Positions 39,630 to 44,473 of a stretch of DNA of 64,000 nucleotides are shown here, in pieces. The stretch comes from an uncultured Gammaproteobacteria bacterium. Its GTDB lineage: Bacteria > Patescibacteriota > Patescibacteriia > UBA11705 > JABHMO01. Location of the stretch: positions 90,697 through 154,696 of the forward strand of contig CAZPYM010000002.1 of the NCBI GenBank assembly GCA_964590105.1, given 5' to 3'. The notes under the pieces were generated by a model that saw only the letters and a list, made by a program, of their open reading frames with translations, was not told the DNA's origin and searched no databases. Made by a program: the position numbers and the translations under genes. The first letter of the stretch is position 1; every line of letters begins with the position of its first letter.

Positions 39630-39658
39630 TTGACAGATTGTTTTCATTATTATAATAT
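39630..39658 (+). promoter_or_regulatory. Sigma70-type promoter of the HTH/GHKL operon
   Basis: TTGACAGATTG at 39630 is followed by overlapping TATAAT/TAATAT boxes at 39651-39658. Confidence 0.55.
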
Positions 39659-39714
39659 AATCGGTAAAGTGAATTGCTGGGACATTGACAATTATAGGGC
39701 AAAAGGAGGCAATA

Positions 39715-40719
39715 ATGAACCGAAAATCATTCAAGCCTGGCTATACGCTGGAGAGATTGCAAGAGCTTGAAGTGGCAGTCAGGGCGTGGTACGTCGGACT
39801 TCCAAAGCCGAAAATTCCCAATGCTGTGAGAATTACCGGCATGAGTTCCCGGACTGTTTTTTTGTATTTCCGGGCGGCGGAAAGGGGCAGTGGTCCCCAG
39901 CCATTGGTAATGGAGAGGCTGTTTGAAGCGACCGGAAATCCGGTTTTTCTTTTGAATGAACACGAAAAAGAGGCTTTCCGCGAACGCGGATTTGCCATGC
40001 CGGATGAGGTATTGCTTGGACAGAATGATTTTGCAGAGCCTCCGGCTGTCAAGACCAAAGGTAGGCGGCAAATTTCCATGCCTTTTGCAGAAGACAGGGG
40101 CGCGGCGATGGTCAGAGTGATTGCCGAGTGGTTTGACAGTCTGCCGTCGCCGAAAAGAGACCACGCGCAGAATCTCCTCGGAGTTGACGTCGCCACGGTT
40201 TACCGTTGGATCAAGGGGAAGACATTTCCCAATCTTGATTCTGTGTGCTCTTTGTGGAATACACTAGGAAATCCAGTTTTCCTTTTGCGTGAAAATGAGT
40301 TAAGTATTGCAAAAGCGCTTGGTTATGTGCCGGCGGAGGATTACCCGACACTGGAATCTTTCAGCGGGAAGTCTGTCTCTGACCAGCCGGCGTCCGCGTC
40401 GCTGAAAATTGCTGTCAGGACTGAAGCAGACTCGGTCAACGTGGAAGTAGCTTTTGGCAAAAAGGCGAGCAAGCTCCTGGTTGGCGTGCTGACCAGCGTG
40501 AGCGTGATCAGCGATTTGCTGCAAGAATCTGGTCTTTCCGGCGCGCCGGAGTCGATCAGATACAAGGCGGCAGAAGCAGTGATTAAAATAGTTACAGCTT
40601 TCAATTTGAAAACAGATGATTTTAGAAAAAGAACGCCCGAGGGGGGGGATGATGCGGAAACTCGCAAAAGGATGGAAATTGTTTATGGATTATTTCGACA
40701 ACCAGGAAAGGAGGAATGA
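39715..40719 (+). CDS. Tandem helix-turn-helix protein, 334 aa (internal duplication of an HTH-like module)
   Basis: RBS AAGGAGG, 6 nt from ATG 39715. Two paralogous modules: LPKPKIPNAVRITGMSSRTVFLYFRAA...EATGNPVFLLNEHEKEAFRERGF and LPSPKRDHAQNLLGVDVATVYRWIKGK...NTLGNPVFLLRENELSIAKALGY. A helical C-terminal part follows. Confidence 0.65.
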   Translation: MNRKSFKPGYTLERLQELEVAVRAWYVGLPKPKIPNAVRITGMSSRTVFLYFRAAERGSGPQPLVMERLFEATGNPVFLLNEHEKEAFRERGFAMPDEVLLGQNDFAEPPAVKTKGRRQISMPFAEDRGAAMVRVIAEWFDSLPSPKRDHAQNLLGVDVATVYRWIKGKTFPNLDSVCSLWNTLGNPVFLLRENELSIAKALGYVPAEDYPTLESFSGKSVSDQPASASLKIAVRTEADSVNVEVAFGKKASKLLVGVLTSVSVISDLLQESGLSGAPESIRYKAAEAVIKIVTAFNLKTDDFRKRTPEGGDDAETRKRMEIVYGLFRQPGKEE

Positions 40720-42372: not shown

Positions 42373-44397
42373 TTATTTTTGGGCGAATAATCGCCTGATT
42401 GTTTCTTGTTGTTCCGGCGTAAAAACCTGGTCAAGCCAGCTGATCTCTGCGTCGGGCGACACGCCGTATAAAACCTTGCCGCCAAGCGAGCCGCAAAAGC
42501 GCAAAAAAGTTTGGCTTTTATTGAGTTCTAGGCAGGCTTTAAAAATTTGTTTATAAGCGTTTTTATAATCAATCATTGGGTCAAAGCAATTTGCGTTTCG
42601 CATAACGCTGGCAATTTTGAAAAGTGTTCTCACCTTTCCGCCAAGGCAAAACACGGCAATGATTTGTTTTTGAAGTTGAGTTAATTCATTCGTGCGTTGG
42701 CATTCGACTTCAGTCGTTACGTCATTGCGGAGCCTTATAATCCTTGTCTTCGTGTCGTTTTTAGCCAAAACTGGCAAGGGAGCTGAATCTACCGGACTTG
42801 TTTTTGCGCTGTTTTCAGCAGGAGTTACCGCCGGTGAAACTGCCGGTGTGGGTTCTGTTTCCGGTTTTGGCGGTTTCGTTGTCGCGCAAAGAGATCTTAA
42901 CCGTTCGTGAAGTTCAGTCGGAATGATTGCTCCTGTGTCCCCGGTCGCAGCGGTACTTTGCATGTAGAGCGCATACTTTTTGCTCATGCGGCCGCAGAAA
43001 GTCAATGGCGGCTGGTCACGGCGGGAAATTTCCCTGGCCGTAGAAATGATGTTGCCGCGTCGTTTTGAATCGCTGCCAAGTAGTCCAAGTTTAAACAGTG
43101 CGTCGGCCACTTTCCAAGATGATTTTCTTGTGCCAATGATTTGATAGGCTGCAATGATCAGTGTTTCGTCTTCTAGTGAACATGGCGTGCCATCGGGAAC
43201 TTCATTTGTGTCTTCTGCGTCTTCGGGCGGAAGTATCGGAGCCTCAGAAGCTTGCCAGCTAAGAAGTTCCTCTTCGTCAAATTCAGGCGGCGCAGAAAGA
43301 ATATCTGTTCCCGCCGAAACTTCTTCAAAATGTTCAACCGGCGGGGCCATTTGACAGACCTTCAAAGCGTTTTGCAAGCGCAAAAGATCTTTGAGCTGAT
43401 CTTCAATAGGCGACCGCAACCGGAGGAGTTTCTGGATATAAGCGTCGATTTCTTCAATTTTTTCATACGCGCGTTCGATCGCGGCAGTGATTAGTTGGCA
43501 ATCTTCTTTGGAAGAAAATTCAAGGCGCGGCTTTAACTCCTGATCAATTATTTCATTTTGGATATAACTTCGATCGTCTTCCACAACGGTTTGCGCGCGG
43601 CGCAAACCGTCAAGGCGTCTTTGCAGGGGCGCGATGAACTGTTGCAAGGACTTAATCTTGATGCTGACATCGCAGCCATGTGTTCTCGTCGGTGTAGTAG
43701 AGATTTCTCCAGCCAGGGTTTCAAGCGCTTCATCCTCAATTTGACGTCTGATTTCCGACAGTAATTCGTCGAGTATCATGGCCAGAGCAAATGATGCGCT
43801 AGTAGCTTCTTTGCGGTCACCCTGGAAAGAGTGTTGTGCCAATAGTCCAAGTTCTTCAATGATTGAAGTAAGTCTTGGGTACTGATGAGATAGCCCGTTT
43901 AGGCTTTCCCGCGCTTCTTCTGAAACCATTGTTCTGATCGATTCCGGAGTCAGCGGTTCTTCTGCCGGCGAATCAACCTTTTCATCGACAGGGTCGATGG
44001 GGGGGGCAAAGTAGTCTAGTCGCTCCTGCGGATCGACGGGCATTTCAGGCACAACCCTTTTTCGGGAAGCTTCAATGATTCTTTCGAACTGTCCTTGGTC
44101 AAAGAAAAACCGGCGGTTAGTGTCATTGGTAATGATTACTCCGCCATACTGGATGAAGTAGTTTATCAGATGCCAGAGAGCTTTCCTATTGGAACAAGAA
44201 AAGCTCTGCAAGTACTTTTGAACCTTGTTCATTGGTTCCAGAATAGAATCCGGAGTTCTGGTCATCAAGCGGGTTTGCGAATCGCAGTTGTCGGCAAATC
44301 GTTTGCTGGTTTGGATCAGCAGTTCATGGTCAGGCGGACGGCGGGGATCTATATCACTCTTCCGCTTTTGCGCCTCCAGTTTTGTTATTTCTGTCAT
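42373..44397 (-). CDS. Large orphan protein, 674 aa: repeated winged-helix-like modules, a central coiled coil and acidic/Pro-rich linkers
   Basis: RBS AAGGAG. Paralogous modules: LIIAAYQIIGTRKSSWKVADALFKLGLL...PPLTFCGRMSKKYALY and QIIAVFCLGGKVRTLFKIASVMRNANCF...TFLRFCGSLGGKVLY. A weaker N-terminal copy is KALWHLINYFIQYGGVII. Heptad-rich region around aa 200-360. I saw no enzymatic motif. Confidence 0.6.
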   Translation of the reverse strand: MTEITKLEAQKRKSDIDPRRPPDHELLIQTSKRFADNCDSQTRLMTRTPDSILEPMNKVQKYLQSFSCSNRKALWHLINYFIQYGGVIITNDTNRRFFFDQGQFERIIEASRKRVVPEMPVDPQERLDYFAPPIDPVDEKVDSPAEEPLTPESIRTMVSEEARESLNGLSHQYPRLTSIIEELGLLAQHSFQGDRKEATSASFALAMILDELLSEIRRQIEDEALETLAGEISTTPTRTHGCDVSIKIKSLQQFIAPLQRRLDGLRRAQTVVEDDRSYIQNEIIDQELKPRLEFSSKEDCQLITAAIERAYEKIEEIDAYIQKLLRLRSPIEDQLKDLLRLQNALKVCQMAPPVEHFEEVSAGTDILSAPPEFDEEELLSWQASEAPILPPEDAEDTNEVPDGTPCSLEDETLIIAAYQIIGTRKSSWKVADALFKLGLLGSDSKRRGNIISTAREISRRDQPPLTFCGRMSKKYALYMQSTAATGDTGAIIPTELHERLRSLCATTKPPKPETEPTPAVSPAVTPAENSAKTSPVDSAPLPVLAKNDTKTRIIRLRNDVTTEVECQRTNELTQLQKQIIAVFCLGGKVRTLFKIASVMRNANCFDPMIDYKNAYKQIFKACLELNKSQTFLRFCGSLGGKVLYGVSPDAEISWLDQVFTPEQQETIRRLFAQK

Positions 44398-44444
44398 GGG
44401 TCTTTCTCCTTTTTTTTGGTTGTCAATTTACATTCGGACTTTTA

Positions 44445-44473
44445 ATTCTAGCTATTATTTATGATTTTGTCAA
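44445..44473 (-). promoter_or_regulatory. Sigma70-type promoter of the 674-aa gene
   Basis: On the minus strand: TTGACA (44473-44468), 17-nt spacer, TAGAAT (44450-44445). Confidence 0.6.

What the first reader, a model, noticed from the sequence alone, without database searches (positions are those of the whole stretch)
39630..44473. Three-gene GC-rich island: a tandem-HTH protein coupled to a GHKL/MORC-type ATPase, facing a 674-aa multi-winged-helix/coiled-coil protein
Seen in sequence:
- A 4.8-kb block sits between the housekeeping genes tig and hppA. Its GC content is visibly higher (hand-counted 60-nt samples give 40-62%, against about 35% in neighbours).
- It has its own TTGACA promoters on both sides and convergent terminators.
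- Gene 1 (39715-40719) contains two paralogous HTH-like modules.
- Its TGA stop (40717-40719) is followed immediately by the ATG of gene 2, and an AAGGAGG lies inside its last codons. This indicates translational coupling.
- Gene 2 carries Bergerat-fold motifs: EGIKNGWDA (ExxxNxxDA), LDNGEGM (DxGxG) and PEGTFTAIVL (GT). Its G2 lid is degenerate. A basic Pro-rich linker and a roughly 100-aa C-terminal domain I could not identify follow.
- Gene 3 (minus strand) has 2-3 repeats of a roughly 70-aa module ending F(C)G-x5-K-x-LY. These are separated by a long heptad region and acidic/Pro-rich linkers, and I saw no catalytic motif.

Established knowledge: GHKL/MORC ATPases paired with DNA-binding partners recur in prokaryotic conflict and defence loci and in mobile-element maintenance modules.

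Inference: this trio matches no named system I can recall. It may be a novel DNA-sensing ATPase system for defence, or for plasmid/element maintenance.
Basis: partly seen in the sequence, partly recalled or inferred. Interest (0 to 1): 0.8.

Follow-up and report, generated by a model that had tools for sequence, protein, structure and literature searches.

The report
Patescibacterial MORC-like ATPase three-gene module
The three genes form an undescribed module: an ATP-driven MORC/Hsp90-type clamp protein, a DNA-binding partner made with it, and a coiled-coil protein; a small clade of ultra-small (Patescibacteria-type) bacteria has inherited it vertically, so it is not a recently acquired mobile island.

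Summary

The mobile-island reading fails. Every sampled relative with trigger factor at least 57% identical to the window's, and enough flank, carries the trio between tig and hppA. More distant Patescibacteria have hppA next to tig. This indicates one old insertion kept vertically while evolving fast (gene 2 37-54% identical, hppA 79-86%). The gene-2 family has about 155 clusters at 50% identity, almost all about 500 aa. A coupled gene-1-like gene and a neighbouring coiled-coil gene were present in all five distant loci examined. It has no match in PADLOC, phages, plasmids or viral contigs, and no nuclease, helicase or methylase partner in this clade.

Best reading: an HTH-recruited, MORC-like, non-nucleolytic DNA clamp. 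Its biological role is open. Gene 2's persistent GC3 excess is unexplained.

The parts
39630..39658 (+). sigma-70-like promoter of the g1-g2 operon (TTGACA-17-TAATAT)
   Evidence: 10/12 match; second best in the region
39703..39709 (+). AAGGAGG ribosome-binding site of g1
   Evidence: read directly from the sequence
39715..40719 (+). g1, 334 aa: two paralogous HTH-type modules plus a conserved C-terminal helical domain
39739..39999 (+). g1 HTH-type module 1 (about aa 9-95)
   Evidence: It matches the single module of relatives and is 29% identical to module 2, E 1e-9.
40102..40359 (+). g1 HTH-type module 2 (about aa 130-215; LLGVDVATVYRWIKG)
   Evidence: HTH_17 E 1e-3, below threshold; phrog_5301 'transcriptional repressor' E 1.2e-5
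40447..40716 (+). g1 C-terminal helical domain (about aa 245-334), the part of g1 kept in distant subfamilies; inferred g2-binding adaptor
   Evidence: Alignment A2. The g1 HMM matches this region in L093 (domain E 1e-4) and L118 (E 1e-3), and matches L095 overall at E 2e-11.
40708..40722 (+). translational-coupling junction: AAGGAGG inside the end of g1, TGA 40717-40719, ATG 40720
   Evidence: the same tight g1-g2 junction in all loci
40720..42249 (+). g2, 509 aa: GHKL-S5 (MORC/Hsp90-class) ATPase
40720..41334 (+). g2 GHKL (Bergerat) domain, about aa 1-205: E37/N41/D44, D83-N-G-E-G87, lid around G118, GTFT 179-182
   Evidence: (Hsp90/TRAP1/HtpG N-domain, E 1e-7)
41335..41799 (+). g2 second (S5-fold / transducer-like) domain with trailing helices, about aa 206-360; conserved D259, G287, Q298, R302
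41800..41955 (+). g2 Pro-rich disordered linker ending in a basic patch (GRKPHRRRKPQKKP)
   Evidence: pLDDT below 50 at residues 373-410. K+R fraction is 0.26 in the 20 aa before the C-terminal domain, against 0.13 for whole proteins, across 118 sequences.
41956..42246 (+). g2 C-terminal alpha/beta domain (aa 413-509), probable dimerisation domain; no HExxH
42261..42288 (+). intrinsic terminator of g1-g2
42340..42365 (-). terminator-like hairpin after g3 (10-bp perfect stem)
42373..44397 (-). g3, 674 aa: basic N-domain, acidic linkers, long helical (coiled-coil-like) region, two basic C-terminal modules
44014..44397 (-). g3 N-terminal globular domain (aa 1-128, pI 9.0)
   Evidence: alignment A3; pI
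43333..43950 (-). g3 long helical region (aa 150-355; helices 198-233, 248-291, 297-350)
   Evidence: secondary structure only; only coiled-coil-type weak Pfam hits
42883..43185 (-). g3 C-terminal module 1 (aa 405-505, pI 9.4)
   Evidence: hhalign against module 2: 98.6%, E 6e-16
42376..42705 (-). g3 C-terminal module 2 (aa 565-674, pI 9.1); present only in the window, L009 and L007
44445..44473 (-). sigma-70-like promoter of g3 (TTGACA-17-TAGAAT)
   Evidence: 11/12, best in the region

Best explanation
The block is a three-gene module of a previously undescribed family, and all named nearest relatives of the window's clade are Patescibacteria.

Shown:
- g2 is a GHKL plus S5-fold ATPase of the MORC/Hsp90/SMCHD1/MutL class with intact nucleotide-binding motifs. 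A disordered Pro-rich linker ending in a basic patch and a small C-terminal alpha/beta domain follow.
- g1 carries one or two HTH-type modules and a conserved C-terminal helical domain. Its gene always lies immediately upstream of g2 on the same strand.
- A coiled-coil protein gene always lies next to the pair. In this clade that is g3, with basic globular modules joined by acidic linkers.
- The module was inserted once between the ancestrally adjacent hppA and tig. It has since been inherited vertically while evolving much faster than its flanks.

Inferred mechanism:
- g1 and g2 are made together and form a complex through the g1 C-terminal domain.
- The g1 HTH modules place the complex on DNA.
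- g2 is held as a dimer by its C-terminal domain. It closes its N-terminal ATP gate around DNA as eukaryotic MORCs do, aided by the basic patch, and hydrolyses ATP to reopen.
- g3, a dimeric coiled-coil with DNA-binding ends, bridges or multimerises the clamps.
- The output is non-nucleolytic clamping, compaction or silencing of DNA.

The family is patchy across the phylum, stable within clades, fast-evolving and variable in its DNA-binding modules. For those reasons I favour an accessory, conflict-related role, such as silencing or excluding foreign DNA, over a universal housekeeping role. That last step is the weakest.
For: g2 fold and family:
- AF2 model pLDDT 75.7, pTM 0.68.
- A 118-sequence profile hits Hsp90/TRAP1/HtpG N-domains at E 1e-7.
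- E37, N41, D83, G85, G87, G118 and R302 are invariant or at least 90% conserved.
- Some distant family members carry precomputed PF13589 hits.

Module conservation:
- g1-like gene, then g2, plus a neighbouring coiled-coil gene, in subfamily A, B, C and an outlier.
- g2 and g3 pairwise identities co-vary: rho 0.63, p 0.002.

Vertical history:
- Identity to the window: tig 60-69%, hppA 79-86%, g2 37-54%, g3 25-38%, g1 26-44%.
- The closest pairs agree between flanks and trio.
- Loci found through tig alone carry the trio when tig is at least 59% identical, and lack it at 36-50%.
- hppA and tig lie 62 bp to 1.5 kb apart, with no trio, in named Patescibacteria.

DNA-binding hints:
- g1 matches HTH_17/HTH_3 and a PHROG repressor family.
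- g3 globular modules have pI 9.0-9.4, and g2 has a basic patch.

Mechanistic precedent:
- MORC2 is a dimeric DNA clamp that compacts DNA through ATP hydrolysis (PMC12216690).
- C. elegans MORC-1 topologically entraps DNA (cited in PMC8277788).
- Plasmodium MORC acts with ApiAP2 DNA-binding factors (PMC12221972, title and abstract).
Against: - No protein-protein or protein-DNA contact was tested.
- The g1 HTH hits are all below Pfam thresholds.
- The g3 fold is unknown: the model has pLDDT 41.7.
- Homology of the coiled-coil neighbour to g3 outside subfamily A is weak (E 2e-3 in a coiled-coil region; module profile not significant).
- The MORC-specific S5 motif is absent.
- Known prokaryotic MORC/paraMORC proteins work with helicases, nucleases or methylases (PMC2292703). 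None is present here.
- Strict synteny in reduced genomes fits a housekeeping role as well as a conflict role.
- The taxonomy of subfamilies B and C was not established directly.
Confidence: 0.45

Rival explanations
1. It is an anti-phage or anti-plasmid defence system with a destructive effector that sequence methods cannot yet recognise. The g2 ATPase senses or remodels invading DNA found by g1 and g3. An unrecognised nuclease or toxic activity then kills the invader or the cell; candidates are the g2 C-terminal alpha/beta domain and the g3 N-domain.
For: - Prokaryotic MORC/paraMORC and GHKL-Shedu proteins are defence components (PMC2292703; PMC12137116).
- The trio diverges fast and varies in module number.
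- It is patchy at phylum level: only about 155 clusters at 50% identity among 1.84 billion representatives.
- Subfamily B and an outlier add a conserved 447-533-aa protein with methyltransferase-like motifs. That reading comes from the sequence only.
Against: - No PADLOC hit for any component in three loci.
- No nuclease, helicase, TIR or other effector domain in Pfam or NCBIfam.
- No HExxH in the g2 C-domain: 1 of 118 sequences.
- The trio sits among housekeeping genes in fixed synteny, not in a variable island.
- No mobile-element or phage link.
Confidence: 0.2
2. It is a clade-specific housekeeping nucleoid organiser. The HTH-recruited GHKL clamp and its coiled-coil partner compact, bridge or help segregate the cell's own chromosome, in a role like SMCHD1 or a condensin.
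For: - All sampled members of the clade retain the trio at one locus in very small genomes; the longest contigs are 0.59-0.76 Mb.
- No effector domain is present.
- SMCHD1 and MORC are among the best structural matches.
- In subfamily C the trio lies directly beside dnaA-dnaN. In the window it lies about 34 kb from dnaA.
Against: - The family is absent from most Patescibacteria, including the nearest outgroups, which have hppA next to tig.
- The proteins evolve far faster than the flanking genes.
- The genomic position is not conserved between subfamilies.
Confidence: 0.2
3. g2 is a divergent Hsp90/HtpG-type protein chaperone. g1 and g3 are client-adaptor or co-chaperone proteins, and the position next to trigger factor reflects a proteostasis role.
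For: - By sequence the family profile is closest to Hsp90/TRAP1/HtpG N-domains, E 1e-7.
- tig is the upstream neighbour in subfamily A.
Against: - There is no Pfam HSP90 hit.
- g1 carries HTH-type modules, and both partners have basic nucleic-acid-like modules.
- Adjacency to tig is limited to subfamily A and results from insertion into an hppA-tig pair.
Confidence: 0.07
4. One reading: a recently acquired GC-rich mobile island or a plasmid/element-maintenance module, or an assembly chimera.
For: - GC is raised relative to tig and the window mean.
- The block has its own promoters and terminators.
- Outgroups lack the block.
Against: - Synteny is conserved across relatives with tig only 57-69% identical.
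- The identical arrangement is found in independent assemblies.
- There is no integrase or flanking repeat.
- There is no homologue in 50,697 phage records, 72,556 plasmids or IMG/VR.
- The GC excess persists in all relatives, so it is not unameliorated recent transfer.
Confidence: 0.03

Closest known systems
Eukaryotic MORC ATPases (MORC2, MORC3, C. elegans MORC-1) and SMCHD1
   Different: Identity is only 12-15%. The MORC-specific S5 motif GhXhhpXXRhl is absent. There is no CW zinc finger, no coiled-coil insertion and no SMC hinge. Here the coiled coil and the DNA readers are separate polypeptides (g3 and g1). PF13589 scores below threshold (14.1 against 25 bits).
Prokaryotic MORC and paraMORC1-5 families (Iyer, Abhiman & Aravind 2008, PMC2292703)
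   Same: Bacterial GHKL+S5 proteins with family-specific C-terminal extensions, distributed patchily. The HATPase_c_3-type N-domain gives weak hits to PF13589 and to the BbrUII/HgiDII restriction-enzyme model.
   Different: Those families sit in R-M-like operons with SFII helicases, nucleases and methylases, and they move laterally. This family is paired with an HTH protein and a coiled-coil protein. It has no such enzymes in the window's clade, and it is vertically stable there.
Hsp90 / HtpG / TRAP1
   Same: Closest by sequence profile (E 1e-7 over the N-domain). The N-domain, middle domain, C-terminal dimerisation layout is similar.
   Different: No HSP90 Pfam match. The linker lies after the second domain rather than before it. 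The partners look like nucleic-acid binders.
GHKL-containing defence proteins (Shedu type I-D VcSduA; phage RIIA-like GHKL proteins)
   Same: A GHKL ATPase with a clamp-like middle domain controlling a DNA-directed function (PMC12137116). RIIA proteins are the best viral structural matches (E 1e-7 to 2e-9, TM about 0.35).
   Different: There is no fused PD-(D/E)xK nuclease or other effector, no PADLOC hit, and no viral homologues by sequence.

Membership tests
GHKL (Bergerat-fold) ATPase superfamily | Motif I / N-box (E-x3-N-x2-D) | tested here: met
   E37-G-I-K-N41-G-W-D44-A. E37 and N41 are at least 90% conserved in 118 family members.
GHKL (Bergerat-fold) ATPase superfamily | Motif II / G1 box (D-x-G-x-G) | tested here: met
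   D83-N-G-E-G87. G87 is invariant, and D83 and G85 are at least 90% conserved. A simple regex finds DxGxG in 115 of 118 full-length members.
GHKL (Bergerat-fold) ATPase superfamily | Motif III / G2 ATP-lid (G-x-x-G-x-G) | tested here: inconclusive
   Only the first glycine survives (invariant G118 in K-R-I-G-R-I-S). HMMER aligns this stretch to the Hsp90 GQFGVGFYSAF lid. The segment before it, residues 101-116, has pLDDT below 50.
GHKL (Bergerat-fold) ATPase superfamily | Bergerat alpha/beta sandwich fold | tested here: met
   [not shown]
MORC/paraMORC/MutL/Hsp90/topoisomerase subgroup | Second, S5-fold (transducer) domain after the GHKL domain, supplying a conserved basic residue | tested here: met
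   Matches of 244-272 residues to two-domain structures: MORC3, MORC2, TRAP1, SMCHD1, TopoVI-B. R302 is at least 90% conserved family-wide, and Q298 is invariant among the seven close relatives. Their role as the catalytic finger is inferred, not tested.
MORC family sensu stricto (Iyer et al. 2008) | S5-domain signature GhXhhpXXRhl | tested here: not met
   The corresponding strand reads G254-I-R-L-C-D-A-E-T-N-T-V, with no Arg at the signature position. Subfamily B has G-I-W-L-x-D-A-x-T-G-x-R-V, offset by three residues. Motif definition from PMC2292703.
MORC family sensu stricto / Pfam HATPase_c_3 (PF13589) | Score above the Pfam gathering threshold | tested here: not met
   14.1 bits against a cut-off of 25, E 0.049. 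Only weak or faint precomputed hits in some subfamily-B members.
Prokaryotic MORC/paraMORC R-M-type systems | Operonic association with an SFII helicase, nuclease and/or DNA methylase | tested here: not met
   Neighbours in the window and in all subfamily-A loci are only g1, g3, tig and hppA. A conserved protein with possibly methyltransferase-like motifs occurs only in subfamily B and L118, and its fold is unverified.
Hsp90/HtpG | HSP90 family signature (Pfam PF00183) covering the middle and C-terminal domains | tested here: not met
   [not shown]
MutL | MutL_C dimerisation/endonuclease domain and DNA_mis_repair domain | tested here: not met
   [not shown]
Known anti-phage defence systems (PADLOC-DB 2.0) | A significant match of any component to a system model | tested here: not met
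   g2 has 0 hits. g1 matches only mad1 at E 0.027 (20 residues of HTH). g3 matches LmuB at E 0.12. Subfamily-B loci are also negative. Newer DefenseFinder models were not available.
Genomic island / mobile element | Variable presence among close relatives, integrase or flanking repeats, homologues on phages or plasmids | tested here: not met
   The trio is present in all sampled clade members with enough flank. The intergenic regions hold no repeats beyond terminator hairpins. No phage, plasmid or IMG/VR match.
Helix-turn-helix DNA-binding domain (g1) | Match to an HTH family above threshold, or a confirmed fold | tested here: inconclusive
   HTH_17 19.7 bits against 27 (E 1e-3). HTH_3 E 1.4e-3 in 2 of 7 orthologues. 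phrog_5301 'transcriptional repressor' E 1.2e-5.
Winged-helix domain (g3 modules) | H-H-H plus beta-hairpin wing fold | tested here: inconclusive
   The single-sequence AF2 model has pLDDT 41.7. The module profile has no significant PDB hit and there is no consistent Pfam hit. Only the helix pattern and the basic pI are compatible.

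The most novel reading that the evidence does not exclude
A bacterial counterpart of eukaryotic MORC/SMCHD1 silencing. It would be a nuclease-free, ATP-driven DNA clamp in which the DNA reader (g1) and the coiled-coil scaffold (g3) are separate subunits. Some Patescibacteria would keep it vertically to compact or silence particular DNA, either foreign DNA or chosen chromosomal regions. The persistent GC-richness of its own genes would reflect avoidance of self-targeting of AT-rich DNA, or deliberate rare-codon throttling.
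Probability: 0.25. Interest if true: 0.8.

Novelty: new variant of a known kind. Interest (0 to 1): 0.55.

Why it matters
Prokaryotic MORC-like ATPases are so far known only as parts of restriction-type systems with nucleases and helicases. How the eukaryotic, nuclease-free, DNA-compacting MORCs arose is unclear. This family is a compact three-protein version without any recognisable nuclease. The DNA-binding, ATPase and coiled-coil functions that eukaryotic MORCs combine in one protein are here split over three polypeptides. That makes it a tractable model for clamp loading and compaction. It is also one of the few conserved, functionally interpretable gene modules among the many unannotated genes of Patescibacteria, whose chromosome biology and phage defence are poorly known. 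If it is only a lineage-specific accessory ATPase of unknown role, the gain is modest: a new family definition and a corrected island annotation.

Tried and rejected
- Direct family assignment with Pfam, NCBIfam, PHROGs, PADLOC and PDB sequence search gave only sub-threshold hits for the single proteins.
- A scan of GTDB species genomes for g2 found nothing. The window's own genome does not appear in that collection: the best hppA hit is 74% identical.
- The 118- and 59-sequence alignments were too diverse for pattern-based locus searches.
- The third word-index search, run with g3, returned only the query itself.
The single-sequence model was too poor for a fold search. The AFDB library was unavailable.
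- The g1 and g3 HMMs barely detect the positional equivalents in subfamily B, and the g3 C-module profile is not significant outside subfamily A.
- An active zincin protease in the g2 C-domain was rejected because there is no HExxH.
- A riboswitch or ncRNA in the intergenic regions was rejected: Rfam finds only tRNAs in the window.
- Recent HGT as the cause of the GC excess was rejected because the excess is present in all diverged syntenic relatives.
- A literature search for Patescibacteria plus GHKL found no paper.

Full report
**1. What is in the sequence**

The ORF list shows g1 at 39715-40719 (+, 334 aa), g2 at 40720-42249 (+, 509 aa) and g3 at 42373-44397 (-, 674 aa). They lie between trigger factor (38215-39522, -) and the H+-pyrophosphatase gene hppA (44524-46545, -). 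Both flanking genes have full-length Pfam matches.

- The two best sigma-70-like sites in 39400-44700 are TTGACA-17-TAGAAT at 44473-44445 (-, 11/12) and TTGACA-17-TAATAT at 39630-39658 (+, 10/12).
- Hairpins at 42261-42288 and 42340-42365 lie between the convergent stops.
- AAGGAGG (40708-40714) sits inside the last codons of g1, and TGA abuts the g2 ATG.

The GC claim is only partly right. g1, g2 and g3 have GC 0.50, 0.52 and 0.475. The window mean is 0.41, tig is 0.39, and hppA is 0.47, so there is no compositional edge on the hppA side. In GC3 the trio lies only 0.5-1.6 sd above the other 51 ORFs of the window.

**2. Gene 2**

Single-sequence searches gave only hints:
- HATPase_c_3, E 0.049.
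- The BbrUII/HgiDII restriction-enzyme model, E 1e-3.
- A PHROG family of unknown function.
- Nothing in PADLOC or the PDB.

The word-index search found only six other clusters, at 37-54% identity. A profile of those seven sequences, scored against 1.84 billion cluster representatives, found 155 proteins at E <= 1e-3 and 91 at E <= 1e-30. Nearly all are about 500 aa, so this is a coherent single-architecture family. It splits into three main subfamilies: A with 17 representatives including the window, B with 59, and C with 20.

Evidence for the ATPase fold:
- In a 118-sequence alignment G87 and G118 are invariant. Y29, E37, N41, D83, G85, G100, F181, P208, D259, G287, R302 and G359 are at least 90% conserved. 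Motifs I, II and IV of the Bergerat fold are therefore intact. The lid motif keeps only its first glycine.
- That profile hits Hsp90/TRAP1/HtpG N-domains at E about 1e-7.
- The AF2 model built from the seven-sequence alignment has pLDDT 75.7 and pTM 0.68. Low confidence is confined to the lid (residues 101-116) and the linker (373-410).

The long alignments show that g2 has both the GHKL domain and the following S5-type domain.

The MORC-specific S5 motif described by Iyer et al. is not present. I therefore class g2 as a new paraMORC-like family, not as a MORC.

**3. Genes 1 and 3**

g1:
- Residues 22-93 and 136-204 of g1 (positions 26-94 of the second query segment) are 29% identical, E 1e-9.
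- Each half matches the single N-terminal module of orthologues that are only 210-232 aa long.
- The second copy reads LLGVDVATVYRWIKG. It gives sub-threshold HTH_17 and HTH_3 hits and a PHROG 'transcriptional repressor' hit at E 1.2e-5.
- The C-terminal helical domain is the part that stays recognisable in distant subfamilies. For that reason I infer it is the adaptor that contacts g2.

g3:
- It has a basic N-domain, a long helical region and two basic C-terminal modules, joined by acidic linkers.
- The two C-modules are homologous (hhalign 98.6%, E 6e-16). The N-domain is not detectably related to them.
- The second C-module is present only in the window, L009 and L007. The g1 duplication occurs in the window, L007 and L097.
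- No Pfam or PDB relative exists for g3, and no usable model could be made. The winged-helix label therefore remains untested.

**4. History of the locus**

All seven g2 clusters from the first search sit in the arrangement g1, g2, then convergent g3. Six of them lie between tig and hppA, with wider synteny (Sua5, a metallophosphatase, tig, then the trio, then hppA, L32, TsaD, TsaE). The window's exact arrangement recurs in three separate ENA assemblies, which excludes a chimera.

| Protein | Identity to the window |
|---|---|
| tig | 60-69% |
| hppA | 79-86% |
| g2 | 37-54% |
| g3 | 25-38% |
| g1 | 26-44% |

The nearest pairs (window with L009, L008 with L010) are the same for flanks and trio.

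I then sampled relatives without using g2, through tig in metagenome contigs:
- Loci with tig at least 59% identical and enough flank (L097, and L098/L102) carry the module.
- Thirteen loci with tig at 36-50% identity show none within the available flank. No g2-family HMM hit occurs in them.

In named Patescibacteria, Saccharibacteria or Paceibacteria MAGs, hppA (70-74% identical, the best named relatives) is followed by tig after 62 bp to 1.5 kb, with no trio.

The simplest history is a single insertion between an ancestrally adjacent hppA and tig, followed by vertical retention with rapid divergence. No homologue is found in 50,697 phage records, 72,556 plasmids or IMG/VR.

**5. The module beyond this clade**

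Subfamily B (L092, L093, L094):
- g2 is preceded by a 165-316-aa protein, with a 4-nt overlap in L092 and L093 and a 23-nt gap in L094.
- A convergent coiled-coil protein of 120-486 aa follows.
- A conserved 447-494-aa protein lies next to it.
- The flanks are different housekeeping genes in each locus.

Subfamily C (L095):
- The trio lies beside dnaA-dnaN.
- Its g1 is a clear homologue (E 2e-11).
- It has a 628-aa convergent coiled-coil protein.

Outlier (L118):
- A g1-like 404-aa gene precedes g2.
- A 497-aa coiled-coil gene and a homologue of the subfamily-B extra protein are transcribed divergently upstream.

The g1-g2 pair is thus universal in the family, and a coiled-coil neighbour is always present. 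Sequence homology of that neighbour to g3 is not established outside subfamily A. None of these proteins matches PADLOC. All are unnamed or 'hypothetical' in public sources.

**6. Mechanism**

Shown: an intact GHKL-S5 ATPase, a co-translated HTH-type partner, an adjacent coiled-coil partner with basic modules, and conservation of this set.

Inferred by analogy with MORC2, a dimeric DNA clamp that compacts DNA by ATP hydrolysis (PMC12216690), with MORC-1 (PMC8277788), and with MORC acting alongside ApiAP2 DNA-binding factors (PMC12221972):
- g1 recruits a g2 dimer to DNA.
- ATP closes the g2 N-gate around DNA.
- g3 bridges the clamps.
- The result is non-nucleolytic clamping or compaction.

Arguments bearing on the biological role:
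- For an accessory, conflict-type role: the family is rare and patchy across the phylum but stable within clades, and it evolves quickly with changing numbers of DNA-binding modules.
- For a housekeeping nucleoid role: fixed synteny in reduced genomes and the lack of any effector.
- For a chaperone role: only the sequence similarity of the N-domain to Hsp90.

**7. An unexplained feature**

g2 GC3 exceeds the mean of the other ORFs of its locus in 10 of 10 loci from four subfamilies. The z-scores run from 0.2 to 3, and to about 40 in L095, where g1 and g2 are 0.76 and 0.84 against 0.50-0.52 for dnaA, dnaN and a PBP gene.

In subfamily A the locus is old and vertically inherited. I infer that synonymous sites are saturated at that divergence, so unameliorated recent transfer cannot explain the excess. 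Rare-codon throttling, avoidance of self-targeting, or recurrent cassette replacement are untested ideas.

**8. Verdict**

The protein-level interpretation is correct for g2 and g1 and unproven for g3. The mobile-island and maintenance-module reading is wrong.

The module is a new variant of the paraMORC-type GHKL systems, with novel partners and no nuclease. It is of moderate interest now. It would be of high interest if it proves to be a bacterial MORC-like silencer.

Noticed in passing
window 1207-2907 (+): A 566-aa flotillin/SPFH gene (Band_7 E 1e-30, Flot E 3e-8) has GC 0.63 and GC3 0.81. It is by far the most GC-rich ORF in a 41% GC window and is probably a recent lateral acquisition.
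   Followed up: partly
window 461-1174, 25492-26169, 34284-34724, 35530-35922: The other ORFs with raised GC3 (0.53-0.61) all lack any Pfam match. In this genome, GC-rich genes tend to be lineage-specific unknowns, as the trio is.
   Followed up: partly
L092 12347-13690, L093 13212-14696, L094 12001-13350, L118 4982-6583: A conserved 447-533-aa protein accompanies the g2 module in subfamily B and in an outlier, but not in the window's clade. Its N-terminal 260 aa carry motifs reminiscent of class-I methyltransferases (LATLGGxGIEA ... IE ... HLDLCGT ... TVADxRRN). It has no Pfam, PDB or PADLOC hit, and its fold was not tested.
   Followed up: partly
L012-L015, L027, L042 (around 10000-14600): hppA followed by tig on the same strand, 62 bp to 1.5 kb apart, is a conserved gene pair in several named Patescibacteria MAGs. 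The trio interrupts this pair.
   Followed up: yes
L095 4095-11482: In subfamily C the module lies directly beside dnaA-dnaN. Its g1 and g2 have GC3 of 0.76-0.84 against 0.50-0.52 for the neighbours, while its coiled-coil gene is at 0.46.
   Followed up: partly
window 39715-40719 and 42373-44397; L007, L009, L097: Duplication of the g1 HTH module (window, L007, L097) and of the g3 C-terminal module (window, L007, L009) tend to occur in the same genomes. This may mean the two modules act on the same target. The sample is too small to test.
   Followed up: no
window 37570-38205 (-): A 211-aa ORF without Pfam match lies directly downstream of tig and is called in independent assemblies of the same organism. 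It is Glu/Lys-rich at the N-terminus, and its function is unknown.
   Followed up: no
window 4773-7585: dnaA and dnaN are in the window, so the trio lies about 34 kb from the probable replication origin of a genome whose longest contig is 594 kb.
   Followed up: no
[not shown]
   Followed up: partly
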